Shown here in pieces: positions 31,111 to 47,918 of a stretch of DNA of 64,000 bases. Made by a program: the position numbers and the translations under genes. Source of the DNA: Elusimicrobiota bacterium (GTDB lineage: Bacteria; Elusimicrobiota; Elusimicrobia; UBA1565); contig JBDRPD010000083.1 of the NCBI GenBank assembly GCA_043827405.1, positions 128,001 through 192,000 of the forward strand, read 5' to 3'. How positions within the stretch are numbered: position 1 is the stretch's first letter; each line of letters opens with the position of its first letter. Under the pieces are notes generated by a model, which did not search any database, was not told the origin of the DNA, and was given only the letters and a program-made list of their open reading frames with translations.

Positions 31111-31113
31111 CCC

Positions 31114-31752: not shown

Positions 31753-34235
31753 TCTCCATCTACGAATCCATCGTCCTGCAGCGCGCGAAGGCCGTGCTCC
31801 TCGTGCTGTTGGCCTGCCTTACCTTTTTCGCCTACTGGATCAAGGACTTCAGGCTCGACGCTTCCAGCGACTCGCTGGTTCTCGAGCACGACGACGATAT
31901 CCGCTACTATCGCGAGATCAACGTCCGTTATGAGAGCGGCGATTCCGTCGTTATTACCTATGCGCCCGAGGCGGATCTTTTCTCCGATCAGTCGCTCGCC
32001 CGGCTGACGGCGCTGCGCGACGAGCTGCGCGCTTTCAAGAGCGTGAGCTCGGTCGTTACCCTCCTGGACGTTCCGCTGCTGAAGAATCCTCCGGGGCTGC
32101 TCAATGAGCTCAAGGATAATATTAAGACGCTCGAGTCGCCGGGCGCCGACCGGCGGCTCGCGATTGCTGAATTTCGCGACAGTCCGATCTACAGCAATAT
32201 GCTCGTCAGCCCGGATCTGAAGACGACCGTGCTGCAGGTTAACTTTCAGTCCGACAACGACCACGAGAAGCTCCTGATCCGCCGCTCGGAGCTCCTCGAA
32301 AAGAAGTTGGCCGGGCCCCTGCCCGAGGCCGAGCGCGAAGAGCTGGCGCGCATCGAGTTGGAGCACCGGCTGTTCAAGGACCAGCGGCGGGCGCAGCGCC
32401 ATGAGGATATCGCCCGCATTCGCGGCGTTATCAAGCGCTACGGCGCCGACGCCCGGTTGTTCCTCGGCGGAGTGCCGATGATCGTCGACGATATACTGTC
32501 GTTTATCCGCAGCGACCTCAAGATTTTCGGAGCGGGGATGCTCGGCTTCCTGGTGCTGGCGCTAAGCGTCATCTTCCGCAAGCCGCGCTGGGTGTTTTTG
32601 CCGATGCTCTGCTGCGCCGCCTCGACCCTCTCGATGATGGGACTGCTGGGCCTGCTGCGCTGGGACGTGACGGTCGTCTCCTCGAACTTCATCTCCCTGC
32701 AGCTCATCTTCACCATGTCTTTGGCGATCCATATCGTCGTGCGCTACCGGGAACTGCTTAAGATCAGCCCGGACGCCGCCAACCGCCGGCTGATCTCCGA
32801 TGCCGTCGCGTCCACCTTCATTCCCTGTCTCTATGCGGTTCTGACGACGATCGCGGGCTTTACTTCTCTGGTCGTCTGCGACATCCTGCCCGTCGTCAAT
32901 TTCGGCTGGATGATGACGCTGGGCCTGGTCGTTTCGCTGCTCGTCACGTTTCTGCTGCTGCCCGCCTGTCTGGTCCTGATGCCGAAGCATGCGGCCGCAA
33001 CGGAAAAGGATTTCGGCCTCCCCCTGACGGCCTTCTTCGCCGGTTTAACGGAGAGATACGGGCGGGCGATACTCGTGGTGAGCGGCTGTGTGGCGGTGGC
33101 GGTCGTCGCCGGCATTATGCGGCTGGAAGTGGAAAACAGCTTCATCGATTATTTTAAGGAGTCGACCGACATCTACCAAGGGATGCGGTTCATCGACCGG
33201 GAGCTCGGCGGAACGACGCCGCTCGACATCATGCTCGATTTCTCGAAGGAGGAGCCGGCTGAAAAGACGGCGCCGGCGGCGGGCGCTGAGGATGAGGACT
33301 TCGACGATTTCGGGGAGTTCGAGGAAGCGGAGAAGGACCCGTCGAAGTACTGGTATACGAAATCCAAGCTCCAACGCATCAGCGAAGTGCACGACTATCT
33401 CGACGGCTTGCCGGCGACCGGCAAAGTCCTGTCTTTGGCGACGCTGTGGAGGACGGCCGGCGAACTTAATCAGGGGCGGGAGTTTGATAACTTTACGCTG
33501 GCCATCCTGTTCGGACAGATGCCGGATCAGTTCAAGGGCGCACTGGTGACCCCGTACGTCTCGCTCGAGAACAGCCAGGCGCGCCTGACCACGCGCATTA
33601 AGGACTCGATGAAAGATCTTCGCCGCGACGCCCTGATCAAGAAGATCAAGTCGGACCTCGTCAATGTATACGGCCTTAAGGAGAGTGAGTTTCGCGTTAC
33701 GGGCCTGATGGTGCTCTACAATAATATGCTGCAGAGCCTGTTCCGCTCCCAGATTCAGACCATCGGGCTAACGGTCCTGGCGCTGACGCTGATGTTCCTG
33801 GTCCTGTTCCGCTCGCTCAAGATCGCGCTCATCGCGATCTTCCCCAACCTGCTCGCCTCGATGACGGTGCTGGGTGTTATGGGGCTCGCCGGGCTGCCCT
33901 TGGACGTGATGACGATCACGATCTCGGCCATCAGCGTCGGCATTGCCGTGGATAATACCATCCACTACCTGCACCGCTTTCGGCGCGAGATCACTAAGGA
34001 CTGGGACTACCTGCAAACCATGCACCGCTGCCACGCCAGCATCGGTCACGCCATGTACTATACGTCGCTGACGATTACGATCGGCTTCTCGATCCTGTCG
34101 ATGTCCAATTTCATCCCGACGATCCTGTTCGGCCTGCTGACGGCGCTGGCGATGGTGATGGCGCTGGCCGCCTCGCTGAGCCTGCTGCCCCGGCTCCTGA
34201 TCATCTTCCGGCCGTTCGGTACGGGCAAGAGCTGA
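31749..34235 (+). CDS. MMPL/RND-family lipid exporter (probable CTG start at 31749; first GTG at 31794)
   Basis: Two-repeat MMPL architecture; LTTIAGF, GGTTPLDI, GIAVDNTIH. Confidence 0.88.
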   Translation: MISIYESIVLQRAKAVLLVLLACLTFFAYWIKDFRLDASSDSLVLEHDDDIRYYREINVRYESGDSVVITYAPEADLFSDQSLARLTALRDELRAFKSVSSVVTLLDVPLLKNPPGLLNELKDNIKTLESPGADRRLAIAEFRDSPIYSNMLVSPDLKTTVLQVNFQSDNDHEKLLIRRSELLEKKLAGPLPEAEREELARIELEHRLFKDQRRAQRHEDIARIRGVIKRYGADARLFLGGVPMIVDDILSFIRSDLKIFGAGMLGFLVLALSVIFRKPRWVFLPMLCCAASTLSMMGLLGLLRWDVTVVSSNFISLQLIFTMSLAIHIVVRYRELLKISPDAANRRLISDAVASTFIPCLYAVLTTIAGFTSLVVCDILPVVNFGWMMTLGLVVSLLVTFLLLPACLVLMPKHAAATEKDFGLPLTAFFAGLTERYGRAILVVSGCVAVAVVAGIMRLEVENSFIDYFKESTDIYQGMRFIDRELGGTTPLDIMLDFSKEEPAEKTAPAAGAEDEDFDDFGEFEEAEKDPSKYWYTKSKLQRISEVHDYLDGLPATGKVLSLATLWRTAGELNQGREFDNFTLAILFGQMPDQFKGALVTPYVSLENSQARLTTRIKDSMKDLRRDALIKKIKSDLVNVYGLKESEFRVTGLMVLYNNMLQSLFRSQIQTIGLTVLALTLMFLVLFRSLKIALIAIFPNLLASMTVLGVMGLAGLPLDVMTITISAISVGIAVDNTIHYLHRFRREITKDWDYLQTMHRCHASIGHAMYYTSLTITIGFSILSMSNFIPTILFGLLTALAMVMALAASLSLLPRLLIIFRPFGTGKS

Positions 34236-34239
34236 AGTT

Positions 34240-35628
34240 ATGCCGAAGCTGAAATCCATCTATATCTGCCAGGAGTGCGGCCAGTCCACGACCAAGTGGG
34301 CGGGCCAGTGTCCGGCCTGCCGCGCCTGGAATACTTTGGTCGAGGAGGTCGTCGAAGAGCGGCCCGCCGCGGCGGTCAAGAGCGCGCCGCGGCCGCTGAC
34401 GGACTTCACTTCCGAAACGGTCCCCCTGGCCGATGTCCAGGCGGCGGAGGCCGCGCGGACGCCGACGCGCCTGAGCGAGCTGGACCGCCTGCTGGGCGGC
34501 GGGCTGGTGCCCGGACACGTGCTGCTTCTCGCCGGAGCCCCCGGGATCGGGAAATCCACTTTGATGCTGCACGCCGCCGGCAGCCTGGCGGCCGCGGGCA
34601 AGGTCCTTTATGTCAGCGGCGAGGAGTCTCTCAGCCAGGTCAGCGGCCGCGCCAAGCGGCTGGGCCTGCGGGGCGAAGGCATCTACCTGCTGGCGGAGAC
34701 CGATCTGGTGAAGATTTTGGACGCGATCCGCAAGCATGAGCCGCGCTTTATCGTTATCGATTCGGTGCAGACCGTCTATCATCCCGAGCTGGGGGGCGGC
34801 CCGGGCTCGGTCGGACAGGTGCGCGAGTGCGCCGCCGAGCTCCTGCGGGCGGTCAAGCAGCGGGACGCGGCGCTGTTTCTGCTGGGGCATGTCACCAAGG
34901 AGGGCAGCGTCGCCGGGCCCAAGGTCCTTGAGCATATCGTCGACACGGTCCTGCAGTTCGACACCGAAAAGCATCATCAGCTGCGCGTGCTGCGGGCGCA
35001 GAAGAACCGCTTCGGACCGACCTCCGAGATCGGAATCTTCGAGATGCGCGAGGACGGGCTGCATGGGGTAACCGATGCCTCGGCCTTTTTTATTGAGGAA
35101 CTCGACCGGGCCCCGGTACCCGGGCGCGCGATCTCGGTGGCGGTTGAGGGCTCCCGGCCGATGCTCGTCGAAGTACAGGCGCTGGTGTCGCCGACCCGCT
35201 ATCCCTTGCCGCGGCGCATGGCGACCGGTATCGACGTCAACCGCGTGCTGGTGCTGGTAGCGGCGCTGGAGAAGCATCTGGCGGTGCGCTTTGAGAATCA
35301 GGATATCTTCGTGAACCTGGCCGGCGGGGTGCGGCTGCGCGATCCCGCGATTGATTTGGCGGTGTGCCTGGCGCTTGTTTCCTCGGCGCGCGAGGCCGCG
35401 CTGCCGTCGGATCAGGTCTATATCGGCGAGGTCGGCTTGCTGGGCGGCCTCGGCCGGGTCGCTTTTCTTACCGAGCGGCTGCAGGCGGCCGAGCGCGTCG
35501 GCTTTAAGAGCGCGGTCATCCCCAGCCGGTCGCGCAAGGACCTCGCCGGCGGCAAAAGAAAGCTGCGGCTCGTCCTGCAGGAAGCCGACGACATGGTCGC
35601 CGCTGTCGGCCGGGTACTAAAAATATGA
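34240..35628 (+). CDS. radA: DNA repair protein RadA/Sms
   Basis: CQECG...CPAC zinc finger, GAPGIGKSTL, KNRFG. Confidence 0.96.
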   Translation: MPKLKSIYICQECGQSTTKWAGQCPACRAWNTLVEEVVEERPAAAVKSAPRPLTDFTSETVPLADVQAAEAARTPTRLSELDRLLGGGLVPGHVLLLAGAPGIGKSTLMLHAAGSLAAAGKVLYVSGEESLSQVSGRAKRLGLRGEGIYLLAETDLVKILDAIRKHEPRFIVIDSVQTVYHPELGGGPGSVGQVRECAAELLRAVKQRDAALFLLGHVTKEGSVAGPKVLEHIVDTVLQFDTEKHHQLRVLRAQKNRFGPTSEIGIFEMREDGLHGVTDASAFFIEELDRAPVPGRAISVAVEGSRPMLVEVQALVSPTRYPLPRRMATGIDVNRVLVLVAALEKHLAVRFENQDIFVNLAGGVRLRDPAIDLAVCLALVSSAREAALPSDQVYIGEVGLLGGLGRVAFLTERLQAAERVGFKSAVIPSRSRKDLAGGKRKLRLVLQEADDMVAAVGRVLKI

Positions 35629-35638
35629 GGGAGTCATT

Positions 35639-36637
35639 ATGATTACATGGCTGTATCGAGTAATGGTTTTGGTCGGCTGTCCCGCTCTCGTCTACTTTCA
35701 GATCGCCAAAGACCCGCGGGCGGTGCTTATCGGGCTCGGCGTCGGCGTCGTCCTCGTGGTGTTTGAGCTGCTGCTTGAGAAGATCAGTCTTATTACCTTG
35801 GTTTCCGGCGTTCTCGGCGCGAGCGCGGGGCTCATTATGGCGAAGCTCGCCGACTATACGGCCTTCCAGGTCGGCGACGAGGCCTTTTATCATGCCTGGG
35901 GCAAGTATTCCGCGCTGCGCTACTTCGCCTTCGGCATCCTCGGCATGTTCGTGACCATCCGCAAGATCCTGCCTGAGATCGATACCCTGGACAAGGATAT
36001 TCTGGCGATTTCCAAGCGCCGGGGATCCAATATGAAGGTCCTCGATACCAGCGCCATTATCGACGGCCGGGTCGTGGATATCTGCGAGACCCATTTTATC
36101 GGCGGCTCGCTGATCGTTCCGCGCTTTGTCCTTAACGCGCTGCAGCACATGGCGGACTCCGGCGACAGCATGAAGCGCGCGCGCGGCCGGCGCGGACTCG
36201 ACATCCTGGCGCGCCTGCAGGAGAACCCGGAAATCCCGCTCAAGATCATCGACAAGGACGTCCCCGAGATCGAGGACACGGACGCCAAGGTCGTGCGGCT
36301 GGCCAAGCAGCTCGGCGGCAAGGTTTTTACGACGGACTTCAATCTCAATAAGATCGCGTCTCTGGAGGGCGTGCAGGTCCTCAACGTCAACGACCTGACC
36401 AACGCGCTCAAGCCGGTGGTGCTGCCGGGCGAGAAGATGTCGCTGTTTGTCATGAAAGAGGGCAAGGAGCGCAGCCAGGGGGTCGGCTATCTCGACGACG
36501 GAACCATGGTGGTCGTCGAAGACGGCAAGTCGTATATCGGCGAACGCATCGATCTTGTGGTTACTTCCATCCTGCAGACTTCGCAGGGCCGGATGATATT
36601 CGGCAAGTTCCAGGAGCCCGAACAGGAGCCGGCCTAG
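35639..36637 (+). CDS. Membrane-anchored PIN/TRAM-domain protein (YacL-like)
   Basis: N-terminal TMs; LDTSAIIDGR, RGRRGLDIL, QGVGYLDDGTMVVVE; follows radA. Confidence 0.92.
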   Translation: MITWLYRVMVLVGCPALVYFQIAKDPRAVLIGLGVGVVLVVFELLLEKISLITLVSGVLGASAGLIMAKLADYTAFQVGDEAFYHAWGKYSALRYFAFGILGMFVTIRKILPEIDTLDKDILAISKRRGSNMKVLDTSAIIDGRVVDICETHFIGGSLIVPRFVLNALQHMADSGDSMKRARGRRGLDILARLQENPEIPLKIIDKDVPEIEDTDAKVVRLAKQLGGKVFTTDFNLNKIASLEGVQVLNVNDLTNALKPVVLPGEKMSLFVMKEGKERSQGVGYLDDGTMVVVEDGKSYIGERIDLVVTSILQTSQGRMIFGKFQEPEQEPA

Positions 36638-38706
36638 CGGTCTTCTTCTTCCGCCGGCAGGTCCGCCAGCGAGTCGGGGAGCTGCTCCAGCATCCGCAGG
36701 AAGTCCTTGACGTCGGGCATCCGCGTCCGGTGGTCGAGGTCGAGCGCGCGCTCAAGCAGCACGGTCAGGCGCGGGTCCGGCTCGCGTCCGCCGATATGCG
36801 GGAGTTCGCCGGTCAGCATCTCGTAGCAGCATAAGCCCAGCGAATAGATGTCCGAGATCGGCGTCGTCTCTCCGCGCTTAGCCTCGGGCGCCGCGTAGCG
36901 TTCGGCGCCTTCCCCGGTGGTGCGCGCCAGCACGAAATCCGAGACCTTGATATAGCCCTTATTGGTCACGATGATGCGCTCGGGGCTCAAGCCCCCGTGC
37001 GCTATGCCGTGATGGTGCGCATGCTCCAGGGCGCGGCAGACGGGGATCAGGATGTCGCGCACCTGGCCGACCGGGAATTCGCCGACCTCTTCCAGGATGC
37101 TGTGAACGCTCTTGCCCGGGGTGTAGCCGTAGACGATATAGAGTCCGGAGGCGATATCGAGAATCTCGTAGAGGTCGACGATATTGGGATGGCGCAGCTT
37201 GGCCGCCGCGCGCGCCTCGTCGAGGCGGCGGGCGCGCTCTTCGGCGGGCTGGGCCTTGCTGCCGGCGTAGAGCCGCTTGATGAGGGCGGCGCGGCCCAGC
37301 GTCTGGTCCTGCGCCTTCCATATTTCGACGGTTCCGTCGTAGCCCATGAAGCGGATTAGATCGTACTTCTCGGCGATCGTCATATTGCGCCGCAGCTTCA
37401 GCGGCGGCAGCGGGGTGCGTGAGATTATTGTTGTTTTCGTTTCTGTCTTCTGCTTCGGGGCGACGTTTTCCGTCCAGGAGCGGAGGCGCTTGGCGACGGT
37501 TCCGAAGGCGTCCAGCTTCGTCTGCTTCGGGTCTTTACGGCGGCGCGTCAGCATCACGATCGCCGCCATGAGAGCGACTCCGAGCAGCGCCCCTAGTATC
37601 ATGAAAAGCGCGTTGGTGCCCGAGCCGCCCTGCGCTGTCGCCGCCGCCGGCGCCTCCTCGTCGCGCAGCAGCTTCCAGCTGCTGCCTTCGGCATCGAACA
37701 GGTCGCGGCTGTCGGCGTATTTTAGGTAGCGCAAAAAGCGAGCCGGGTCCAGCTTGGCGGCGATGCGCAGGTTCTGCATCCGCAGCTCTTTGTCTCCGCT
37801 CTGCTCATGCGCCAGCGCCAGCAGGAAGAAGGCGTCCGCGTTATGCGGTGCCAACGCGGTCGCATAAGTTGCGCTTTCCACCGCTTCGGCGAAGCGTTTC
37901 TGCTCCAGCAGGCTTTGCGTCAGGATGATGACCGCTTTGATGTCGCCGGTGCCGCCGACCATGGCGGAGCGCGCCGCGGCCTCGGCCTCGGGGAGGCGGT
38001 TGCCGCGCAGCAGCTTCTCCGCCTGACGCAGCGGGGCGCCGCGCACGGCGTTGGTCGCCGCAGCGCGGGGCAAATCCTTTTCTGTCGCCGGGCGGGGCGG
38101 GGGTTCGGCGAATTTCTTAAACGCCGGCCAATCCGACACGGAGGAGGTCGCCGGTATGCTCGCCGGCGATGCGTCCCCGGCGCTTTTCGGGCTCTTGCGC
38201 GCGGGTTCGCGCCGCGTCGCGCGCGCGCCCGCGTCCTGATTATTATCCTGGTCGCCGCCGGATTTTCTGAACTTCCAGTGATCCCGAGTGCTTATGTCGG
38301 GCCGCGGGTCGCGCTTGAGGCTCTGCGCCGGGGGCTTGACGTCGAGGTTGTTGTAGCCCGCGGGGCGGGTATAGGATACGTCGCCCGCGGGCTTCTGCTC
38401 TACGATCGGCTTTTGCGCGTTGAGGTTCTGCAGCATGAGGTCGATCTGTTCGCGCTGTTCGGGGGGGAGAGATTCATTGGCGGAGATCTTCTTCAGGGTA
38501 TCGATCTGCCGCATCAGCAGTACCGCGTCGTCCATCTGCTTTTGGCCGTCCTGCATGGAATATTCGTAGTCCTTGTCCTTGCGCTTGCCGGATTTCTGCT
38601 TATCGCCGGACGCTTTCTGCGGCGGCGGGTCGGCGTTCTGCGGCGCGGCGGCGATCAGCAGCGACGCGGCGAGAAGGCCGGCGGAGCAGCGGAGGAAGCT
38701 CCTCAT
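36634..38706 (-). CDS. Membrane protein with exported TPR region and a cytoplasmic Hanks-type pseudokinase domain
   Basis: Signal peptide, TPRs, one TM; kinase fold LRHPNIV, YAAPE, SDIYSLG; HRD replaced by HGG and DFG by DFV. Confidence 0.85.
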   Translation of the reverse strand: MRSFLRCSAGLLAASLLIAAAPQNADPPPQKASGDKQKSGKRKDKDYEYSMQDGQKQMDDAVLLMRQIDTLKKISANESLPPEQREQIDLMLQNLNAQKPIVEQKPAGDVSYTRPAGYNNLDVKPPAQSLKRDPRPDISTRDHWKFRKSGGDQDNNQDAGARATRREPARKSPKSAGDASPASIPATSSVSDWPAFKKFAEPPPRPATEKDLPRAAATNAVRGAPLRQAEKLLRGNRLPEAEAAARSAMVGGTGDIKAVIILTQSLLEQKRFAEAVESATYATALAPHNADAFFLLALAHEQSGDKELRMQNLRIAAKLDPARFLRYLKYADSRDLFDAEGSSWKLLRDEEAPAAATAQGGSGTNALFMILGALLGVALMAAIVMLTRRRKDPKQTKLDAFGTVAKRLRSWTENVAPKQKTETKTTIISRTPLPPLKLRRNMTIAEKYDLIRFMGYDGTVEIWKAQDQTLGRAALIKRLYAGSKAQPAEERARRLDEARAAAKLRHPNIVDLYEILDIASGLYIVYGYTPGKSVHSILEEVGEFPVGQVRDILIPVCRALEHAHHHGIAHGGLSPERIIVTNKGYIKVSDFVLARTTGEGAERYAAPEAKRGETTPISDIYSLGLCCYEMLTGELPHIGGREPDPRLTVLLERALDLDHRTRMPDVKDFLRMLEQLPDSLADLPAEEEDR

Positions 38707-40103
38707 TTCTTTTTGTGGTAAAAGTCCTTTCCGGGCTGGATCTTAAGCATCATGCCCGGGCGCAGGAGGCGCGGGTTATGGATATTGTTCTGCTGCATGA
38801 TATTTTTGACCGTGGTCCGGTAGCTGCGGGCGATTTTTCCGAGGTAGTCTCCGCGGCGGACCTTGTAGCGGACGAGCTCCGGCCCGGGGTTCCAATCCTT
38901 CACTGCGGCAAGTTTTTTCAGGAACTCCTCCTTGACGCCCTGCGGGATGCGCAGCGGAAAGCCGGGGCGGTTGCGGGGCGTGCACCAGGCGCGGATATGC
39001 GGATTGAGCCGCTGGATCACTTCCTTGGTTGTCCCGGCGCACTTGGCCGCGATGCCGAGATCGAGGTCGCGGTCGAGCTCCACGATGTCGTAGGGTTCGG
39101 GTTCCTCGTAGTTGGGCTTGATGCCGTAGTTTTCCGGAGCTTCGCCGATGAGCACGCAGGCCATGAATTTCGGCACATAGTTGTGCGTCTCCTGCGGCAG
39201 GACCTTGCGGTCCGCCAGCTTGCCGAAGTCGGCCGAGTTGGAAAACTTAAGATCGCGGCCGATGCCGTTGAGCCCCCGGTTGTAGGCGGCCAGCGCCAGG
39301 TGCCAGTCCTTGAACCACTGGTGCAGGTCGCTCAGATGACGGATCGCGGCCTTGGTCGCCTTCTCCGGGTCGAACCGTTCGTCGACCCAGTACGAAACCT
39401 CCAGGCCGTAGGCGCGCGCGGTGAAGGGCATGAACTGCCATAAGCCCGCGGCCCCGGAGCGGGAGACCGCGTTGCGCTTGTATTCGCTCTCGGTCATGAC
39501 GAGGTAGAAGAGCTCGCGCGGCAGGCCCGCTTGGCGCAGCTCGGACTCGATGAAAGCGCGGTAGCGTCCGGAGCGTTCCAGCGCTTCACGGACGGAATCG
39601 GGCCGCTTTTCAGTGTAGAGCTGGATAAACTTCTTGGTGATCTCGTTTTCCGGATCGATCTCGATGGTATGCTGCTGGGAGGAAATGGGAGCGGCCGGCG
39701 CGGGCGGGGTCTCCTCGAGCACTTCAGCGGAAACCTGCAGGTCGGAGGGGTACTCGGTCTGTGTTTCGCCCGCCTCCCAGGTCCGGACCTTCTCGAGCAT
39801 GCTCAGAAAATCGGCCTTAAGCTCGATCGTCAGCTGGTCCTCCTCCAGCGAGGAGGTCAGCAGGGCAAAGGCTTTCTTGACGGCCGCCCGCGCCTGGCGG
39901 ACCTTGCCTTCCTGAAAGAGCTTGATCCCCTGTTCGTATTGGCTCTCCGCCACCCGCAGCTGTTCGAGGAGCAGCGCGTCCGGATCGGCGTTCTCTTCCT
40001 GTCGGTCGGAGGCGTAGACGGGCGCCTCGGGCGGCGAGGTGTCGGGCGGCAATGCCCGCGCCGCGGGAACGAGCAGCAGCAGCAGCGCGGCGAACGGTTT
40101 CAC
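38703..40103 (-). CDS. MltD-like lytic transglycosylase with LysM domain
   Basis: Catalytic VMTES, AAGLWQFM, LAAYNRG, ETHNYVPKF; C-terminal LysM YKVRRGDYLGKIA. Confidence 0.92.
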   Translation of the reverse strand: MKPFAALLLLLVPAARALPPDTSPPEAPVYASDRQEENADPDALLLEQLRVAESQYEQGIKLFQEGKVRQARAAVKKAFALLTSSLEEDQLTIELKADFLSMLEKVRTWEAGETQTEYPSDLQVSAEVLEETPPAPAAPISSQQHTIEIDPENEITKKFIQLYTEKRPDSVREALERSGRYRAFIESELRQAGLPRELFYLVMTESEYKRNAVSRSGAAGLWQFMPFTARAYGLEVSYWVDERFDPEKATKAAIRHLSDLHQWFKDWHLALAAYNRGLNGIGRDLKFSNSADFGKLADRKVLPQETHNYVPKFMACVLIGEAPENYGIKPNYEEPEPYDIVELDRDLDLGIAAKCAGTTKEVIQRLNPHIRAWCTPRNRPGFPLRIPQGVKEEFLKKLAAVKDWNPGPELVRYKVRRGDYLGKIARSYRTTVKNIMQQNNIHNPRLLRPGMMLKIQPGKDFYHKKK

Positions 40104-41243
40104 CTAGGCCAGCTTCTTGCCGCAGCCGCCGCAGAACTTCACGGTCGGTCCCGCTTGCGCGCCGCACTTCGGGCAGGCGATCGAGCCGAGTCCCTTGCCG
40201 CAGTTCTGGCAGAACTTGGCGCCGGCGGCGACGTCGGCCTTGCAGCCGGGGCATTTGGCTGTCGGCGCGACGACCGGCTTGCCGCATTCGGGGCAGAATT
40301 TCGCGGTGGCCGGCACCTGGGCGTTGCACTGGTCGTTGGTGCAGGAAGCCGTCTGCTGCGGCTGCGTCGAGGCGGCCGAGCCCATGACGCCCGCCATCAT
40401 CCCGCCCATGCCGGCGCCGGCGCCCAGGCCCATGCCCAGGCCCATGCCGCCGCCCATCATGCCGCCGCCCTCGTTTTTGGCCGCGCCCTCCATGGTGTCG
40501 AAGGTGCGCTTCATGCGGTAGTTCTGGCCGCCGAGGATGTCGATTTCGGCCCGCTCGGAAAGGGCTTTCTTCAGGCGCTTGACGGTATCGTCGTCGTCCG
40601 GGACGTTGACCGACTGCAGCATGAAGTTGACCAGCTGGATGCCGAAGTTCGCGAAATCCTTGCCGATCTTCTTATGCAGATCTTCGGAGAGGTCCTCGAG
40701 GTAAGCGCTGATTTCGAGCAGGTTGATCTTCTTGCGGATGATCGTCTCCGCGATGTAGTCCTTGGCCTTGGTCAGGATGATGCCGCGGAAGTAGTCGGTC
40801 AGGGCGTTGACCGTGAACTCGTTCTGCGTACCCGCCAGCTGGACCACGAACTTGCGCGCGTCCGTGACGCGCACGCCGAACTGCCCGAAAGCGCGTATCG
40901 GCAGGAAGATGTTGTACTTTGGGTCCAGGATCGGGATCGGGGATTTTGTACCCCACTTCACATCGAGCTTGGTGGCCTTGTTGATGAAGTATATCTCGGC
41001 CGCGAACGGAGTCTCGCCGCCGAACGGGGCCTTGATCAGGCGCCGGAGGAGCGGAATGTTCAGGGTGCGCAGAGTATGCGTCCCGGGGCCGAGCAGATCA
41101 AGCGCCTGGCCGCCCTTGAAGAACAGGGCCTCCTGGGATTGGTTGACGATGACCTGCGTGCCCCAGGTCAGGTCGTCCGGAGGATGCCGCCAAACCAAGA
41201 TGTCCGCCGGGCCGTCAAATTTTACTCTGTCGATTATCGCCAT
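40104..41243 (-). CDS. SPFH (Band-7, YdjI-like) protein with C-terminal zinc ribbons; start reassigned to ATG 41243
   Basis: GTQVIVNQSQEALFFKGG..LGPG.HTL, KWGT, RAFGQF; GMG-rich linker; multiple CxxC pairs; GGAGG SD. Confidence 0.9.
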   Translation of the reverse strand: MAIIDRVKFDGPADILVWRHPPDDLTWGTQVIVNQSQEALFFKGGQALDLLGPGTHTLRTLNIPLLRRLIKAPFGGETPFAAEIYFINKATKLDVKWGTKSPIPILDPKYNIFLPIRAFGQFGVRVTDARKFVVQLAGTQNEFTVNALTDYFRGIILTKAKDYIAETIIRKKINLLEISAYLEDLSEDLHKKIGKDFANFGIQLVNFMLQSVNVPDDDDTVKRLKKALSERAEIDILGGQNYRMKRTFDTMEGAAKNEGGGMMGGGMGLGMGLGAGAGMGGMMAGVMGSAASTQPQQTASCTNDQCNAQVPATAKFCPECGKPVVAPTAKCPGCKADVAAGAKFCQNCGKGLGSIACPKCGAQAGPTVKFCGGCGKKLA

Positions 41244-41268
41244 ATTCCCTCCGCAGAAAAGCAAAGTT

Positions 41269-41297
41269 AGCTTAAGACTCCGTCCGACGGTTGTCAA
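41269..41297 (-). promoter_or_regulatory. Internal sigma70 promoter upstream of the SPFH gene
   Basis: TTGACA-17 bp-TAAGCT on the minus strand. Confidence 0.65.
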
Positions 41298-41304
41298 GCC
41301 CTCA

Positions 41305-42762
41305 TTATTTCGCGGGCCGGACGATGGGCGGGTCGCCGGCCTCTATGATCTCGACGGTCGCGCCCTTCTCGATCGCGCCGCTGTCGGCGAGCGCCTCGAC
41401 AATCTGGGTGCCGAACTGCACCCGGCCTTCGGGTTTGAGCGGGCCCAGAGCGAGACCACGGCGCCCGACGGCCAGCTCGCCCTCCTCCGGAGTGTCGAGC
41501 GGCGCGGTGCTCCCCGCGTCGGTGTCGAGCGGGCCGCGATTGAACATCGGCAGGCGGGGGATCATGAACAGCAGCGATATGATGCCCGCGACCCCGCCGG
41601 CGCCCGCGGCGGCCAGGACCCAGAGAACTTCGCGCAGGCGGTCCCACTCCCAAGGAGCGTGCGGCACGACAAAAGGGACGATCATGAGATAGAATCCGAT
41701 CATCAGGCACAGGAAGCCCCCGATGCCTGCGAGCCCGAAGCCCGGCACCACGAAGATCTCGAGCGCGATCAGAAACAGTCCGGCCAGGACCAGCAGCAGA
41801 TCGAACCAGCCCGCCATGTCCGCCAGGTAATGGCCCCAGAAGACCACGATGAAGCAGGCGATGCCGGCGGCGCCCATCCAGCCGAAGCCGGGCATATGCA
41901 TCTCGCCGGAGATCAGCATGAAGCCGAGAAATACCAGCAGACTCGTCGCGGCGCTGCCGGTGATGATATCAATGAACTTTTCCAGCCCGGTCTTGCGGGC
42001 ATCGATCAGCGTCGGGTCCGGGATGTTTTCCCGGCGCAGCGCATACGTGATCGAGTCGGCCGGCTCGGCGAGCCCGTAGCGGATCGCCCGGCGGGCGCTG
42101 AGGTTCAGGAGCTTCCCCTTGGCGATGACCAGCTCGGGCTCGCCGCGGATTCGCCCTTCCTTCTTCAGGCGTTCCAGCTCCGGCGCGGTGACGAAGTGCG
42201 TTTCGCCGCCGGCGGTGACGCGATGAACTTCCAGGTCCTTGTCGACCATGGCGGCGGCGAGCGCCGCCGGGTAATTGTTGCGCTCGGCAAGGGCGCGGAA
42301 CTTCGCCCGCAGGGCGGAGATGTGCTTCTCTCCCGCCGCCTCCGTTTTGCCGCCGCCGCTCATCACGGGAGCGGCGGAGCCGATCGAGGCGCTTGGGGCC
42401 ATGTAGATTTTGCCGCAGGCGAGCGAGATCAGCGCCCCGGCCGACCAGGCCTTGTCCTCTACCCAGGCGAATACCGGGATATTGGGCTCCTGCGCCGCGC
42501 GGGCGATGTCGAGCGCCGCGTCCACGCGCCCGCCGAAAGTGTCGATGCGCAGGACAACGGCGCGCGCGTCTTCCCTGCCGGCGAGCGAGCGCCGGACATA
42601 GGAGGCGAGGCCATGGGTAATCTCGCCGTCGATATGGATGACCAGAACCTTGCTGCCGGCGGTCGTGGGAGCGGGTCCGCGGCTGGCGGCGAAGCCGACG
42701 GCCGCATAGAGCAGGCCGGCGGCCAATGCGGCCAGCGATCTTGTAAGCGGTTGCGCGTTCAT
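41305..42762 (-). CDS. nfeD: Long-form NfeD membrane protease (ClpP-like domain, TMs, OB fold); start reassigned to ATG 42762
   Basis: IDTFGG, AWSAGALI, APSASIGSAAP, LEIFVVPGFG, LKPEGRV; ATGA overlap with the upstream gene. Confidence 0.9.
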   Translation of the reverse strand: MNAQPLTRSLAALAAGLLYAAVGFAASRGPAPTTAGSKVLVIHIDGEITHGLASYVRRSLAGREDARAVVLRIDTFGGRVDAALDIARAAQEPNIPVFAWVEDKAWSAGALISLACGKIYMAPSASIGSAAPVMSGGGKTEAAGEKHISALRAKFRALAERNNYPAALAAAMVDKDLEVHRVTAGGETHFVTAPELERLKKEGRIRGEPELVIAKGKLLNLSARRAIRYGLAEPADSITYALRRENIPDPTLIDARKTGLEKFIDIITGSAATSLLVFLGFMLISGEMHMPGFGWMGAAGIACFIVVFWGHYLADMAGWFDLLLVLAGLFLIALEIFVVPGFGLAGIGGFLCLMIGFYLMIVPFVVPHAPWEWDRLREVLWVLAAAGAGGVAGIISLLFMIPRLPMFNRGPLDTDAGSTAPLDTPEEGELAVGRRGLALGPLKPEGRVQFGTQIVEALADSGAIEKGATVEIIEAGDPPIVRPAK

Positions 42763-44651
42763 GCCTGAAGGTCCTGCTGCGCCTGTTGGTAGAGGAGCTT
42801 GCGTTCCGCCGCGATCATGCCGCGGATGTCCTGCGCGTTCATCTTGAGCTGCCGTCCGAAGGCCAGCAGGGTGTTCATCTCCGGCCGGGATATCTCGCCG
42901 TCGGCGAGGCTCATTTGGATGACGCCGCGGAGGAATATCCGAGCCTCCTCGGGCGTCTTCGGCGCCGGCACTTCCAGGTGTCCGCTGCGGGCCGCGCTGA
43001 GCAGCCCGTCGAGCTTGACCCGCGGTATCGTATGCTTCCTGGCATAGGCCTGCGCGAACGCCAGCTCCCGCTGGTCGATGCGGCCGTCGAGGATCATCGC
43101 CCCGACGAGCACGGCCAGCGCCTGTATGGGCGGCATGGCGCCCGACCAGCCGGCGTCCGCGCCGCGCGCCGCAACGCTCTCGGCGGCCAGCAGCGGAGTC
43201 GGCTGGCGCCACTGGCCGTGGGGCATGATGCCGGTCAGGACCCAGCGGCGGCTGCCGTCGTTGGCCGGCGAGCCGCAGAACTCGCAGGCGGCCTGCCGGC
43301 GCTCCGCGGGCGGCGCGCCGCAGCTCGCGCACAGCAGCGAGCGCAGCCCGGAGCCGGCGTCGGTCTTGGCGGCGGCCTGGCGGCTAAGGATGAAAACGTG
43401 GTGGTTGAGCACCGAGCCCTGAGCGGCGGCTTCGCCGTTATGGACCGCGAATTTCTCGCCGGACCATTTGACGAGGACGTGGGCCTTGTCGTCGGGCCGG
43501 CCCGCCTCTATCGCGAGGATATCGACGGCGCCCACGGCGGCGCCGCGGTACAGGGCGCGGGTGCGCGACTGGCTTTCCCGGTGCGCGGCGACCAGCGCCT
43601 CCGCGGCTACCGGGACCAGCGAGGAGGCCTCCGGCTCCCAGTGCGCCATCTGCCAGCGCCAGAAGACGGCCGAGGCGCGGTCCTCCAGGAACTGAACGTT
43701 GAGCGCGGGATCGCGCTGCTTGATCTCCACCAGCCCCGGAATCTGCGCCTCCGAGGTGCGGATGCGCCATTCGCAGGCTTGGGTGATTTCGGCGAGCACC
43801 CAGTCATACTCGCCGGAGCTGACCCAGGAGCCGCAGGCCGCGCATTTGGCGGCGTCGGCGATATCCAGCGGCGCCCCGCAGTTCGGGCAGAACCCTTCAA
43901 GCAGTCCGGGTTTTTTCAGGGTCTGCGCGCCCGGGCGCCGCAGGAAGGACCAGACCTCGATAAACTCTTCTTCTTTCCCGGAGCGGTTCTTGACGACGCT
44001 GTCGTCGTCCAGCCGCACGTCCTGGTCCACCGCCGAGGCGCGAACGCTTACATGGAGCGTGTCGAAGTGCGCGTCCGATTCGACATGGACCACGTCGGCT
44101 TTGAGAACCCGGACCTCGTGCATGCGGTTGCGGATGCCCATCGCCCGCTGCATGCGGATATAAATGGCGAAGCGCTCGTTGATCCCGTCGGAGATGAAGG
44201 CGCGCGCCGGGCCCATGTCTTGGTTCGACCAGGCCTCCTGGATGCGCAGGAAGGCCTTCTGCACCCGGTCGAGAAAGGCGGGCGTGCTGAAGCCCGGGTC
44301 GCGCTGATGGATCTTCGCGATGCCGGCCATGATGGCATGGGACTGGGCGCGCGCCGCGCCCTGCACGATGGTCCGCTGCGTGCGGCCCTCCCCGTTGATG
44401 GCGCCGAATACGCGCAGCATGACGAAGACGCCGATGACGGCGAGCCAGATGACGTTTTCCGTCCGGCTCATGCGCCGGCTGGAACGGTAGCCGCCGTAGC
44501 TGCCGCCGCTGAAACTTCCGCCGCTGAAACCACCGCCGCTGAAGCCTCCGCCGCCGCCCGAATAGCCGCCGCCGCCGCCGGCGCGGGCGAAGACGATCGG
44601 GGGCGCGAACAGGGCGAGCAGAAACAGGGCCAGCGCGAGGCGGCGGATCAC
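42759..44651 (-). CDS. Tim44-like domain protein (two Tim44-like plus Zn-ribbon units) with C-terminal TerB-like domain
   Basis: RAGGGGG Gly-rich N-terminus; DPGFS...F..IQEAW, EVWSFLR; CPNCG/CAACG and CASCG/CEFCG; DGRIDQRE and ADGEISRPE. Confidence 0.8.
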   Translation of the reverse strand: MIRRLALALFLLALFAPPIVFARAGGGGGYSGGGGGFSGGGFSGGSFSGGSYGGYRSSRRMSRTENVIWLAVIGVFVMLRVFGAINGEGRTQRTIVQGAARAQSHAIMAGIAKIHQRDPGFSTPAFLDRVQKAFLRIQEAWSNQDMGPARAFISDGINERFAIYIRMQRAMGIRNRMHEVRVLKADVVHVESDAHFDTLHVSVRASAVDQDVRLDDDSVVKNRSGKEEEFIEVWSFLRRPGAQTLKKPGLLEGFCPNCGAPLDIADAAKCAACGSWVSSGEYDWVLAEITQACEWRIRTSEAQIPGLVEIKQRDPALNVQFLEDRASAVFWRWQMAHWEPEASSLVPVAAEALVAAHRESQSRTRALYRGAAVGAVDILAIEAGRPDDKAHVLVKWSGEKFAVHNGEAAAQGSVLNHHVFILSRQAAAKTDAGSGLRSLLCASCGAPPAERRQAACEFCGSPANDGSRRWVLTGIMPHGQWRQPTPLLAAESVAARGADAGWSGAMPPIQALAVLVGAMILDGRIDQRELAFAQAYARKHTIPRVKLDGLLSAARSGHLEVPAPKTPEEARIFLRGVIQMSLADGEISRPEMNTLLAFGRQLKMNAQDIRGMIAAERKLLYQQAQQDLQA

Positions 44652-45913
44652 CGCGGGTTCCCGCCTTGCTGTTGCTGCTGCTGCCCCATGACCTGATTGA
44701 GCATTTCCATGCTTTGACCGAGCATTTCGTTGACGCCGCGCGTGGCTTCGATCATCTCCTTAACGGTGCCGGCGCGGTCCGCCTTGGGGATATTGGGCAG
44801 GGTCTCGACCAATGACTGGCGGATGGGCCCGCTCATTTTCGGCCACTCCTTCACCAGCAGGCTGCTGGTGCGGCTGTCGAGGAGCAGCAGGGTTTCGTTG
44901 GGAGGATGCTGCATTTTCTGGTAGCGCTGCATCTCCTGGATGACGCCCATGGGATTGGTCTGCGCCTGGTGCATCGCCTGCTGGAAGTCGTTGTTGGCCT
45001 GCTCGTCGCCCAGCGCCTGCATCATGGCCGAGGCCGCCTGGATGGCCTGCTGGGGGTTCATCGGCTGCTGCTGTTGCTGCGTTCCGATGACGGCGGGCGG
45101 CCCGCCGAAGGAGGAGCTCTGCTGTGTTGAGATCTGTCCCTGGAAGTTGCCGAGCGACGACTTGAGGCGCTGGGCGGCTATGGCCGCCGAGATGCTGAGC
45201 AGCAGCCAGAAGACCGTTAAGGCGCCGAAGACCAGCCAGGCCTTCTTCTTGTCGACCCGGTGCAGGCCCGCCGCCGCATGAACGGCAAGGTAGAGCCCGC
45301 ATAGCTGGGGGATGATCGCTCCGGCATAGGGGATGAGGCCCAGAAGAGAACTAATAGGCATCAGCGCCGCCATGGCGGCGAAGGCGCCGAAGCTGCCGTT
45401 GTAGGAGACGCCGCCGCCGAGGACTTTGCACAGGACGTGGAAGATCGCGGCGCCGATGAAGCTCATGATGATCGCCACGATCGGCAGCATGAACAGCCCG
45501 CCGGTGGCGGCAGCGATCGTGAAGGGGACCGACTGGGTCTTGGCGTAAACCGTGAAGGCGGACAGCGGGGCGCTGATCAGCGCCCACAGGATGATGACGA
45601 CCAGCGGCGGGCCGAAGCCGCCGTTGGGGTTGATGCGGGAAAAGAAAAGCGTGGGCTGCTGGGCCATGAATACGGCATTGGCGATCAGCTTGCCGGGCTT
45701 GAAATCGATAAACCCGCCGACATCGGCTTCCCGGCCGGGGCCGATGGGCGCCGCGGCGGGCGGCGGCGGGACGTTTTGTGCCATGACGGCCCGGACCGCT
45801 TCCTCGATAGCTTCGGGGGGAAAGCCGTTGCCGGCCAGCGCCGTCTTGAGGCTTTCGATGGGGTAGCTGCCCATGTTCTGGCGCAGATAGTCGACGATTC
45901 TCTGGTCGGGCAT
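44648..45913 (-). CDS. Yip1-domain membrane protein with Gln/Met-rich C-terminal region; start reassigned to ATG 45913
   Basis: P..FF, GAAIFHVLCKVLGG..SY, LHRVDKKKAW; about 5 TMs. Confidence 0.8.
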   Translation of the reverse strand: MPDQRIVDYLRQNMGSYPIESLKTALAGNGFPPEAIEEAVRAVMAQNVPPPPAAAPIGPGREADVGGFIDFKPGKLIANAVFMAQQPTLFFSRINPNGGFGPPLVVIILWALISAPLSAFTVYAKTQSVPFTIAAATGGLFMLPIVAIIMSFIGAAIFHVLCKVLGGGVSYNGSFGAFAAMAALMPISSLLGLIPYAGAIIPQLCGLYLAVHAAAGLHRVDKKKAWLVFGALTVFWLLLSISAAIAAQRLKSSLGNFQGQISTQQSSSFGGPPAVIGTQQQQQPMNPQQAIQAASAMMQALGDEQANNDFQQAMHQAQTNPMGVIQEMQRYQKMQHPPNETLLLLDSRTSSLLVKEWPKMSGPIRQSLVETLPNIPKADRAGTVKEMIEATRGVNEMLGQSMEMLNQVMGQQQQQQGGNPR

Positions 45914-45920
45914 AATAGGC

Positions 45921-45949
45921 AATATACCGCGCTTTGACGACGGAAGCAA
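45921..45949 (-). promoter_or_regulatory. Promoter of the Yip1-to-pseudokinase operon (leaderless geometry)
   Basis: TTGCTT-17 bp-TATATT, 7 nt before ATG 45913. Confidence 0.6.
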
Positions 45950-45980: not shown

Positions 45981-47918
45981 ATGCAAGCTATGCTCTTCTC
46001 AGCGGTGAAAAAGAAGGGCAATAAAAAGTCGGAAAAATTCGGCACGGTTCTGGGCTGCGCTCCCGGAAACGTGCCGGTTTACTCGTCGGACTACGGTACG
46101 GTCGACAAAGAGCGGCTTCCCACGCGGCATACCTTCCGGAGCTATGTCGATGGGATATTCATGGGGTACAAATGGCAGTGCGTGGAGTTCGCCCGACGCT
46201 GGCTGTACCTGAACCGCGGGTTTGTTTTCGACGATATCGCGATGGCATACGATATATTCCGTCTCAAATCCGTTCGGGTGGTTAAAGACGGCGCCGTTCT
46301 GCCGCTCCACTCGTTCGCCAACGGATCGGCACGGCTTCCCGAACCGGGCTGCCTGCTCATATGGAACGAGGGCGGGGAATTCGCGGATGCGGGGCATGTG
46401 GCTGTCGTTACGGAAGTTTTTCCCGATCGAATCCGTTTCGTGGAGCAGAATGTCGAGCATGAGTTATGGCCGGCAGGACAAAATTATTCCCGGGAGCTGC
46501 GCGCAAAAGAAGATGAGAACGGCGGCTACTGGATAGAGTGCTTTTACAGCGGAGCGACCATCCTGGGCTGGGTCATTCAGACCGGCGATCCGCAGGGGGC
46601 GGAAATCTTCCCGGACCTCGATATAGAGCTGCTGAATCTTCAGGCGCGCGAGGTTAAGAACCGCGGCCAGGCCAACCGATCCTGGCTCAATGTCGCCAAT
46701 CCCGATGAGGCCGCCTATGTGGCTGTCCAGGGTCACAAGGTGACCGACAGGAAGGACAAGGAGTATAAGTATTTTTGTATTTCCGAATCGGCGTACGGCG
46801 AGCTCAAGCGGGCGACCAACCAGCTGCATTCCATGTTCATGCACGCCACCGACTATGTGCTGCAGAATGAAGCGGTGCTGGAGAGGTTTTGCATTCCCCG
46901 GCCTCTCTGGTCCAGGCTTCGGCGGTCATGGGACAATCGCCGCAATCAGGCGATAACCGGGAGGCTTGATTTTTCGGTCTCGGAGAACGGGATAAAAATC
47001 TATGAATACAACGCTGATTCCGCCGCCTGCTATATGGAATGCGGAGTCATCCAGACAAAATGGTCCAAGCACTTCGGCTGCAAGGAAGGATGGTGCGCGG
47101 GAGAGAAGCTGCACCGCGAGCTGGTCGACGCCTGGAAGGACAGCGAAGTGGACGGCATCCTGCATATCATGCGGGATAATGATCGCGAGGAGGCTTATCA
47201 TGCCCTCTTCATGAAAGCGGCGATCGAGCAGGCCGGAATCGAGTGCCGGGTAATCACCGGATGCAGGGGGCTGTCCTGGGACGCGGACGGACGGGTCATC
47301 GATTCGGCGGGCGTTCCCATTCGCTGGGTTTGGAAAACGTGGGCATGGGAAACGGCGCTGGATCAAATCCGCGCCGAATGCGACGAAGATGATACGCGGG
47401 AGCCGCAATCCCTGCTGCGGGGTCCCGCGAGGGGGGCGCCCCGCTTGGTCGACGTGCTGCTGGGAGAGGATGTTCTGGTTTTTGAGCCCCTCTGGACGCT
47501 GATCCCGAGCAACAAGGCGATTCTTCCCGTGCTATGGACCCTGTATCCCGGCCACCCGTACCTGCTTGATTCACAGTTTGAGCTGACTGCGGAGTTGCGG
47601 GGAAAGGGGTTCGTGGCAAAGCCCATCGTGGGGCGCTGCGGGGCCAATATAAGTATTTTCAGCAAAGACGACTCTCTGGTCTCCCGGACCGGCGGTCAGT
47701 TCGAAAAGCGTGAGCAGATCTATCAGGAGTTCTTTCCTCTGCCGAAAATCGACGGCGACAATGTGCAGGTCGGGACGTTTCCGGTGTCCGGAGTGTTTGC
47801 CGGGGCCAACGTCAGAATGGACCCATCTCTCATCCTGGTGTCCGACAGCGACATGCCCGCATTAAGAGTGGTCAACGACGAGGCGCTGCTGGACGGCGGG
47901 CGGCTTAGGGGGTCTTAG
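45981..47918 (+). CDS. gsp: Bifunctional glutathionylspermidine amidase/synthetase
   Basis: CHAP amidase GYKWQCVEFARRW and GHVAV; ATP-grasp GRLDF, YEYNADS, WKTWAWE, FEPLWTLIPSNKAILP, KPIVGRCG. Confidence 0.93.
   Translation: MQAMLFSAVKKKGNKKSEKFGTVLGCAPGNVPVYSSDYGTVDKERLPTRHTFRSYVDGIFMGYKWQCVEFARRWLYLNRGFVFDDIAMAYDIFRLKSVRVVKDGAVLPLHSFANGSARLPEPGCLLIWNEGGEFADAGHVAVVTEVFPDRIRFVEQNVEHELWPAGQNYSRELRAKEDENGGYWIECFYSGATILGWVIQTGDPQGAEIFPDLDIELLNLQAREVKNRGQANRSWLNVANPDEAAYVAVQGHKVTDRKDKEYKYFCISESAYGELKRATNQLHSMFMHATDYVLQNEAVLERFCIPRPLWSRLRRSWDNRRNQAITGRLDFSVSENGIKIYEYNADSAACYMECGVIQTKWSKHFGCKEGWCAGEKLHRELVDAWKDSEVDGILHIMRDNDREEAYHALFMKAAIEQAGIECRVITGCRGLSWDADGRVIDSAGVPIRWVWKTWAWETALDQIRAECDEDDTREPQSLLRGPARGAPRLVDVLLGEDVLVFEPLWTLIPSNKAILPVLWTLYPGHPYLLDSQFELTAELRGKGFVAKPIVGRCGANISIFSKDDSLVSRTGGQFEKREQIYQEFFPLPKIDGDNVQVGTFPVSGVFAGANVRMDPSLILVSDSDMPALRVVNDEALLDGGRLRGS

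What the first reader, a model, noticed from the sequence alone, without database searches (positions are those of the whole stretch)
36634..45949. Six-gene envelope operon: Yip1, Tim44/Zn-ribbon/TerB, NfeD, SPFH/Zn-ribbon, lytic transglycosylase, TPR pseudokinase
Seen: all six genes are on the minus strand. Junctions are 4-nt overlaps (44651/44648, 42762/42759, 38706/38703) or 0 nt (40104/40103), except one gap that holds an internal TTGACA promoter. Known: NfeD-SPFH pairs organise membrane microdomains, YdjI-type SPFH and Zn-ribbon proteins occur in PspA-linked stress operons, and TerB and Tim44 domains occur in stress or lipid-binding contexts. Long NfeD normally partners stomatin/FloA rather than a YdjI-type SPFH. 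Inference: an undescribed PspA-less membrane-stress or microdomain system that links membrane proteolysis, peptidoglycan cleavage and a pseudokinase receptor.
Basis: partly seen in the sequence, partly recalled or inferred. Interest (0 to 1): 0.78.

Follow-up and report, generated by a model that had tools for sequence, protein, structure and literature searches.

The report
PspA-less membrane scaffold with rewired protease
The six genes are real but are not one fixed system: the conserved core is a two-gene pair that likely builds a stress scaffold under the bacterial inner membrane, and this genome adds a rare membrane protease that has likely swapped its usual flotillin partner for that scaffold.

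Summary
All six genes, junctions and domains are confirmed; the host is an Elusimicrobiota bacterium (inferred from homologue names). No genome searched repeats the six-gene set. It resolves into three layers.

(1) Core: a single-pass Tim44-Zn-Tim44-Zn-TerB protein plus a soluble YdjI/SamI-type SPFH-zinc-ribbon protein. They co-occur in 21 of 24 phylum genomes that have either, are linked in 20 of 30 relatives with both, and G000 has no PspA. The scan noted this pair before on other DNA (e1-1493756).

(2) Yip1, MltD-like transglycosylase and TPR pseudokinase are linked only within one family; the transglycosylase is unlinked in all 12 non-family genomes with both.

(3) The long NfeD occurs in 5 of 393 class genomes. 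It belongs to a six-member clade that keeps the Ser-Lys dyad but has lost the OB-fold LRPxG motif (0 of 6, versus 105 of 114 others). It lies near this SPFH in two other families, whereas 68 of 80 wider loci carry FloA.

A conserved promoter before SPFH likely splits the block. Binding and function are inferred only.

The parts
45921..45949 (-). Putative leaderless promoter of yip1 (TTGCTT-17-TATATT, ending 7 nt before the ATG)
   Evidence: Sequence. A -10-like hexamer 5-7 nt before the ATG also in 4 of 5 orthologues. Function inferred.
44648..45913 (-). Yip1-domain membrane protein, 421 aa, 5 hydrophobic segments, Gln-rich tail
   Evidence: Pfam Yip1 E 4e-10; hydropathy; full orthologues in 8 of 16 family genomes, within 7 kb of SPFH in 5
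42759..44651 (-). Core gene 1, 630 aa: signal peptide, Gly-rich loop, one TM helix, two Tim44(NTF2-like)/Zn-ribbon units, TerB-like C-terminus
   Evidence: Pfam; AF2 model pTM 0.81; Foldseek Tim44/mL45; 8 Cys invariant in 109 homologues; hydropathy
41305..42762 (-). Long NfeD (NfeD1b-type) membrane Ser-Lys protease, 485 aa, member of a small clade lacking the OB-fold LRPxG motif
   Evidence: Pfam; S107/K146 align with PH1510 Ser97/Lys138 and are invariant in 13 homologues; trees; motif count
41269..41297 (-). Internal sigma70-type promoter for SPFH (TTGACA-17-TAAGCT)
   Evidence: Sequence; conserved in 17 of 27 order-level SPFH loci; activity inferred
40104..41243 (-). Core gene 2, 379 aa: soluble SPFH (Band_7_1, YdjI/SamI-like), Gly/Met linker, three zinc ribbons
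   Evidence: Pfam Band_7_1 E 2e-46 + DZR; no TM segment; orthologues in 35 of 60 relatives
38703..40103 (-). MltD-like lytic transglycosylase (SLT + one LysM), 466 aa
   Evidence: Pfam; NCBIfam MltD E 1.5e-37 but below cut-off; next to SPFH only in the family
36634..38706 (-). Signal peptide-TPR-TM-pseudokinase, 690 aa (HRD to HGG, catalytic-loop Asn to Arg, DFG to DFV)
   Evidence: Pfam; the same losses in 7 of 7 orthologues aligned; family-restricted
34240..36637 (+). Flanking housekeeping radA and PIN/TRAM genes, convergent, with a 4-nt stop overlap (context, not part of the module)
   Evidence: the same junction side in G002, G008, G010, G011, G016

Best explanation
The block is a layered gene cluster whose conserved core, a single-pass Tim44/zinc-ribbon/TerB protein and a soluble YdjI-type SPFH protein, likely forms a PspA-independent scaffold under the inner membrane, to which this lineage adds a long NfeD protease that has likely switched partner from FloA to this SPFH. 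Shown: gene structure, domains, SPFH without a membrane anchor, co-occurrence and linkage of the two core genes, no PspA or FloA found in the genome, intact protease dyad, altered NfeD OB domain, pseudokinase substitutions. Inferred: (i) the Tim44 protein is the membrane anchor that recruits SPFH oligomers, as SamG/SamH do for SamI in B. subtilis; (ii) its two Tim44 folds bind the cytoplasmic leaflet, and the zinc ribbons mediate contacts; (iii) NfeD docks on the SPFH cage by its cytoplasmic OB domain while its outward-facing protease trims damaged membrane or periplasmic proteins; (iv) SPFH, SLT and the pseudokinase are read from the internal promoter, and Yip1, SLT and the pseudokinase are family-level co-regulated neighbours, not obligate subunits.
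For: Co-occurrence: 21 of 24 genomes with either core gene have both, in 301 phylum genomes including G000; 30 of 36 among 60 relatives. Linked within 5 kb on one strand in 20 of those 30, also in G064 (another class), G484, and G159 in reversed order. A one-domain Tim44-ZnR gene precedes a Band_7_1 gene in Monoglobus, Bacillota. Different genes are inserted between the two in different genomes (ZnR-TPR, GDSL lipase and a beta-lactamase-like gene, NfeD), so the slot is labile and the pair is the constant. SPFH has no TM; the Tim44 protein has one. B. subtilis precedent: YdjG/YdjH are needed for membrane recruitment of soluble YdjI (PMC8581546 passages); YdjG has ZnRs, an NTF2-like domain and a TM segment (PMC11237479 passages). 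NfeD: a clade of six with SH-aLRT 100 among FloA-linked relatives (FastTree 99). NfeD is directly upstream of SPFH-DZR in G350 and 2.4 kb from it on the opposite strand in G490; no FloA over cut-off in either. P0002 and P0003 share a contig length and source with Tim44 P0122 and SPFH P0259: 3 of 4 clade members match, against 2 of 115 others. LRPxG in 0 of 6 versus 105 of 114; OB identity clade-to-sister 0.31 versus 0.51 for the protease domain, while within-clade OB identity stays at 0.43. The NfeD OB domain is the flotillin-binding part in S. aureus (PMC11222466 passages).
Against: No physical or functional evidence for any interaction. At least 4 of the 10 unlinked genomes hold the core genes truly apart (G025, G037, G040, G053), and G533 holds both on different contigs. 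Most linked genomes belong to one order, near cysS/rlmB, so kinship inflates the counts. G350 (83% complete) and G490 (67%) gave no long-Tim44 match, so NfeD+Tim44+SPFH together is shown only in G000. The clade members were picked as top hits of the query. The four NfeD-linked SPFHs are scattered on the SPFH tree (4 changes), which requires many losses or repeated arrival. G000 has four other Band_7 genes that could be the NfeD partner. In B. subtilis the two-hybrid anchor was YdjH (TPM domain), which this locus lacks. L052 and L053 (short Tim44 hits) and four other Band_7_1 loci showed no such pairing.
Confidence: 0.55

Rival explanations
1. One reading: all six products form one envelope-stress machine that couples membrane proteolysis, peptidoglycan cleavage and a pseudokinase receptor.
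For: Tight translational coupling. G008 has the other five genes in the same order. Six family genomes that form one RadA clade lack all five genes, as does G004, which was not in the tree. B. subtilis ydjG/ydjH loss mislocalises wall synthesis (PMC8581546 passages).
Against: The six-gene set was seen only in G000. SLT is unlinked in 12 of 12 non-family genomes and not found in 11 of 30 pair-bearing genomes. The pseudokinase is family-restricted. The joint loss is a single event and fits a block deletion. There is a conserved internal promoter.
Confidence: 0.1
2. The core pair is real, but NfeD is an orphan that lost FloA. It works alone or with an unlinked stomatin, and sits here only because envelope-stress genes cluster; its OB motif decayed by relaxed selection.
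For: NfeD is missing from 388 of 393 class genomes; the clade has long branches; weak or no Pfam NfeD OB hit in P0004, P0005 and P0024; two stomatin-like genes and a tandem Band_7 pair elsewhere in G000.
Against: Proximity to this SPFH type in three families of the class (G000, G350, G490). Within-clade OB identity (0.43) is close to that of the sister group (0.46), with invariant OB residues. None of 80 wider loci has this neighbour.
Confidence: 0.22
3. The Tim44 protein and SPFH serve membrane-protein insertion or ribosome/translocon tethering, like mitochondrial Tim44 and mL45/Mba1, rather than stress scaffolding.
For: The best fold matches are Tim44 and mL45; weak NCBIfam TimA matches; the locus lies among housekeeping genes (radA, cysS, rlmB).
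Against: Both TimA models are far below cut-off (52 < 80; 32 < 200). The genes are patchy, found in 22-23 of 301 phylum genomes. No translocon gene lies among the neighbours identified.
Confidence: 0.1
4. The cluster is an anti-phage or conflict system.
For: TerB-like and kinase-fold parts; the kinase matches PD-T4-6 and MAD6 models.
Against: Five of six proteins have no PADLOC match, and the kinase matches cover only the generic kinase fold. Native codon bias (GC3 0.84-0.89) and a stable chromosomal position across the family.
Confidence: 0.03

Closest known systems
Bacillus subtilis pspA-ydjGHI (pspA-samGHI): SamI/YdjI with SamG and SamH
   Same: Soluble SPFH with a low-complexity linker and C-terminal zinc finger, no own membrane anchor, encoded beside a membrane protein with zinc ribbons and an NTF2-like fold (PMC13713150 abstract and Introduction; PMC8581546 and PMC11237479 passages).
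   Different: No PspA in the genome and no TPM-domain (SamH) gene in the locus. The putative anchor is a twin Tim44-ZnR plus TerB protein; its homology to YdjG was not tested. Three zinc ribbons on SPFH; optional long NfeD.
Long NfeD-SPFH operons: YqeZ-FloA(YqfA) and PH1510-PH1511
   Same: ClpP-like Ser-Lys protease domain, multi-pass membrane domain and C-terminal OB fold, encoded directly upstream of an SPFH gene.
   Different: The partner is a soluble Band_7_1/zinc-ribbon SPFH, not FloA or stomatin. FloA is not found in the genome and the OB LRPxG motif is lost. PMC2636767 (passages) reports no NfeD neighbours for SPFH subgroups outside those it pairs, and lists SPFH8/9 as the soluble ones.
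Tim44 C-terminal domain, mL45 and bacterial TimA (PF04280; NF033778, NF033779)
   Same: Tim44/NTF2-like fold.
   Different: Duplicated, each copy carrying a zinc-ribbon insert, fused to TerB and a TM helix; below both NCBIfam cut-offs.
E. coli MltD lytic transglycosylase
   Same: SLT + LysM with an export signal.
   Different: One LysM; score 129 against cut-off 508; an ordinary neighbour here.

Membership tests
pspA-samGHI (ydjGHI) system | PspA/IM30 gene | tested here: not met
   PF04012: 0 matches in G000 (98% complete); the control rang in 9 of 14 genomes
pspA-samGHI (ydjGHI) system | Soluble SPFH (Band_7_1) with C-terminal zinc ribbon and no TM | tested here: met
pspA-samGHI (ydjGHI) system | TPM-domain membrane protein (YdjH/SamH) in the operon | tested here: not met
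   No TPM hit in any of the six proteins; the rest of the genome was not searched
pspA-samGHI (ydjGHI) system | Membrane protein with zinc ribbons and an NTF2-like domain (YdjG/SamG) | tested here: inconclusive
   Same domain types in the Tim44 protein; direct homology to YdjG was not tested
pspA-samGHI (ydjGHI) system | Membrane recruitment of the SPFH protein by the partner | not testable with these tools
   Needs localisation or binding assays
Long NfeD (NfeD1b/STOPP) protease family | ClpP-like domain with Ser-Lys dyad, membrane domain, OB fold | tested here: met
   Pfam, all three over cut-off; S107/K146 align with PH1510 Ser97/Lys138
NfeD1b-FloA/stomatin operon | Adjacent FloA or stomatin gene | tested here: not met
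   No FloA in G000; the other Band_7 genes lie 33 kb away or on other contigs
NfeD1b-FloA/stomatin operon | LRPxG motif in the OB domain (defined from the alignments made here, not from a paper) | tested here: not met
   0 of 6 in the clade (G000 has LKPEG), 105 of 114 others; 115 of 139 further representatives
Active Hanks-type Ser/Thr kinase | Catalytic-loop Asp and Asn, DFG (motif names recalled) | tested here: not met
   HGG/HGA, Arg for Asn, DFV/DFI in 7 of 7; the ATP-site Lys and APE are kept. Hence a pseudokinase
MltD equivalog (NF008050) | Score over curated cut-off | tested here: not met
   129 vs 508 bits; SLT+LysM present
TimA / Tim44 adaptor (NF033778, NF033779) | Score over curated cut-off | tested here: not met
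   31.7 vs 200 and 52.2 vs 80 bits; Pfam Tim44 and the fold are met
TerB domain | Pfam TerB over cut-off | tested here: inconclusive
   19 vs 24.4 bits here; 28.1 in homologue L051; PF05099 on many homologues
Known anti-phage systems (PADLOC) | System-specific model matches | tested here: not met
   0 for five proteins; generic kinase-fold matches only

The most novel reading that the evidence does not exclude
A small, old clade of long NfeD proteases in Elusimicrobiota has abandoned flotillin FloA, remodelled its OB docking surface and now serves a soluble zinc-ribbon SPFH cage that is moored by a twin-Tim44/TerB anchor. This would be a PspA-free, protease-equipped membrane quality-control platform, and the first NfeD partnership with the soluble SPFH class.
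Probability: 0.4. Interest if true: 0.72.

Novelty: new variant of a known kind. Interest (0 to 1): 0.5.

Why it matters
If true, it shows two things. [quoted passage not shown] And NfeD-SPFH specificity can be rewired. The LRPxG-minus clade beside its FloA-linked sisters is a natural experiment for the open question of what sets NfeD partner choice. It also gives a first functional handle on a large uncharacterised Tim44/TerB membrane-protein family (1122 hits). The peptidoglycan and pseudokinase link that drove the first score is not supported beyond one family.

Tried and rejected
Complex prediction (Tim44 residues 88-630 with SPFH) was not available: queue full, nothing folded. No verdict on binding. 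RNA evidence: no RNA holder listed, so no reads were laid. The promoter/terminator scan was not above shuffles. The genome-contig scan with the single Tim44 protein gave only 3 loci, too few to measure spread outside the phylum. The single-sequence NfeD search found 0 of 300 other phylum genomes; only the profile over the whole class found G350, G421, G484 and G490. G421 is a fragment on a 1.2-kb contig and was left undecided. A single transferred NfeD-SPFH cassette is rejected by the SPFH tree, and recent acquisition of NfeD is not supported by GC3 (0.86). The divergent glutathionylspermidine synthetase gene recalled the ATP-grasp genes of PspA operons (PMC11237479). Rejected: opposite strand, lower GC3, and no match in the 23 plus 20 plus 14 relative loci screened. 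The all-or-none pattern of five genes in the family looked like co-evolution but is one loss on the RadA tree. The profile search of 1.84 billion representatives added no clade member among the new hits placed on the tree (of the first 30 new hits, those of 440-540 aa). PMC7159879 and PMC10936438 (passages) do not describe this module. The NfeD tree is the quick tree; the careful search did not finish.
Full report
Observation. The six minus-strand ORFs, their four tight junctions and the 61-nt gap before SPFH are as described, and Pfam confirms the domains. Yip1 most likely begins at ATG 45913, where five orthologue loci begin; it has a -10-like box 7 nt upstream and no ribosome-binding site, which suggests a leaderless transcript (inference). 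The window is G000:C83, a 4.33-Mb, 98%-complete genome. Source names of the closest homologues say Elusimicrobiota, so the taxon is inferred.

Anatomy. Hydropathy gives five segments for Yip1, a signal plus one TM for the Tim44 protein and for the kinase, a signal plus five for NfeD, and none for SPFH. The AF2 model of the Tim44 protein (109 sequences, pLDDT 84, pTM 0.81) shows a disordered Gly-rich loop, one long helix through the membrane, two Tim44-like domains each with a zinc-ribbon insert, and a helical TerB-like end. Foldseek's best matches are Tim44 and mL45. All eight cysteines and the RxGxG just after the predicted signal cleavage site are invariant in 109 homologues. NfeD S107 and K146 align with the PH1510 dyad (PMC4208085 passages). 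The kinase lacks the catalytic Asp and Asn and has DFV/DFI in 7 of 7 orthologues (motif names recalled).

Layer 1, the core pair. In 60 relatives SPFH was found in 35, Tim44 in 31, both in 30 and neither in 24; 20 of the 30 have them within 5 kb on one strand. Of the other ten, two end at contig edges (G002, G032) and at least four are truly apart. In 301 phylum genomes (G000 included) 22 have Tim44, 23 SPFH and 21 both. The pair is adjacent in another class (G064), in G484, and in reversed order in G159. Outside the phylum, Monoglobus has a shorter Tim44-ZnR gene before a Band_7_1 gene, and G533 has both on separate contigs. Two short Tim44 hits and four other Band_7_1 loci showed no such pairing. 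Kin are not independent, so these counts overstate. No PspA was found in G000. Among the 35 SPFH-bearing relatives only G025 has a single-domain PspA match over cut-off; several others have long ORFs with repeated PspA-like matches.

Layer 2, family neighbours. G008 has yip1-tim44-spfh-slt-kinase with no NfeD, between cysS and radA-PIN. SLT follows SPFH in 8 of 9 family genomes with both and in 0 of 12 outside, and 11 of 30 pair-bearing genomes gave no SLT match. The pseudokinase orthologue was found in 8 of 16 family genomes and 0 of 44 others, with 19 candidates scored per genome; it follows SLT in 6. Seven family genomes lack all five genes; the six of them with a RadA match form one clade, so this is one loss. 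A sigma70-type promoter precedes SPFH in 17 of 27 order-level loci, against 68 of 2605 long ORFs in G000 (the background uses the first ATG and may run low). The block is therefore likely two units.

Layer 3, NfeD. A profile found it in 5 of 393 class genomes and in none of the 16 other family genomes. In the best 80 of 468 metagenome loci of wider relatives, 68 carry a FloA-like gene and none matches any other window protein tested; G000 has no FloA. The window protein, its four closest homologues and P0024 form one clade (SH-aLRT 100, quick tree of 59 rows; FastTree 99). Where context is readable, G350 has NfeD, a 73-nt gap, SPFH-DZR and ZnR-TPR; G490 has SPFH-DZR, GYF_2/ZnR and a third gene, converging on NfeD 2.4 kb away; the first relative outside the clade (G484) has NfeD-FloA. 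P0002 and P0003 share contig length and source with a Tim44 and an SPFH homologue: 3 of 4 clade members match such lengths, against 2 of 115 others, and those two differ in source (inferred, not read). The OB-fold LRPxG motif is absent in 6 of 6 clade members and present in 105 of 114 others. In S. aureus the OB domain of NfeD binds the FloA coiled coil (PMC11222466 passages). Against: the linked SPFHs are scattered on their tree, G350 and G490 gave no long Tim44 (83% and 67% complete), the clade is tiny, and G000 has four other Band_7 genes.

Mechanism. The most likely reading (0.55) is a SamGHI-like scaffold without PspA. The Tim44 protein anchors the soluble SPFH under the inner membrane, as YdjG/YdjH do for YdjI (PMC8581546 passages; PMC13713150 abstract and Introduction). 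NfeD is an optional protease that docks through a remodelled OB domain, and Yip1, SLT and the pseudokinase are co-regulated family neighbours. Every interaction step is inferred; no complex could be folded and no RNA run holding the stretch was listed.

Novelty. Eight full-text searches returned no paper describing a Tim44-SPFH pair or a long NfeD with a soluble zinc-ribbon SPFH. PMC2636767 (passages) states that the SPFH subgroups outside those it pairs have no neighbouring NfeD. PMC11237479 and PMC9239133 (passages) describe YdjGHI and NfeD with band-7/FloT only in PspA contexts. I did not read their supplements, nor Green, Lower and Young 2009 (seen only as a reference), which could list such neighbours. 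The scan noted the Tim44-SPFH neighbourhood before in another genome (e1-1493756). Verdict: new variant of a known kind; interest 0.5.

Noticed in passing
G000:C54:79686-81482 (L171:5684-7486): Full-length homologue (34%) of the GYF_2/zinc-ribbon gene that follows SPFH-DZR in G490; a GYF_2 gene also follows SPFH in G044. Possibly an unlinked partner.
   Followed up: partly
window 45981-52902: Glutathionylspermidine synthetase/CHAP, MscS, an 819-aa protein with no Pfam match but a visible P-loop-like motif, and a PMT-like gene. They have lower GC3 (0.72-0.79) and separate the block from cysS (window 55757) and rlmB; likely a later insertion.
   Followed up: partly
L031, L035, L040, L146, L149, L162: A zinc-ribbon-TPR gene recurs directly beside the SPFH gene in six genomes and has no match in G000, where NfeD fills the same slot as in G002, G003 and G011.
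   Followed up: partly
G001:C14, G032, G041, G045, G047, G055, G056, G059: Long ORFs (about 700-1700 aa) carrying one to four near-full-length PspA-profile matches each: tandem PspA-like repeats or generic coiled coils.
   Followed up: no
G006, G009, G012, G014: Single-domain PspA occurs in four family genomes of the clade that lacks Tim44/SPFH, a complementary pattern resting on one event.
   Followed up: partly
G000:C83:74045-74770 and G000:C13:68306-68620: A second Yip1 paralogue and a second, weak ClpP-like/NfeD-type match elsewhere in the genome.
   Followed up: no
window 29068-36637: alr, MlaA-like, MlaC-like, MMPL-like, radA and PIN/TRAM genes on the plus strand. The first four names are read from the translations by recall; radA and PIN/TRAM rest on domain matches.
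   Followed up: no
genome-wide: G000 carries many TPR/kinase-fold paralogues (28 tblastn matches), so the pseudokinase is one member of a large lineage expansion.
   Followed up: no
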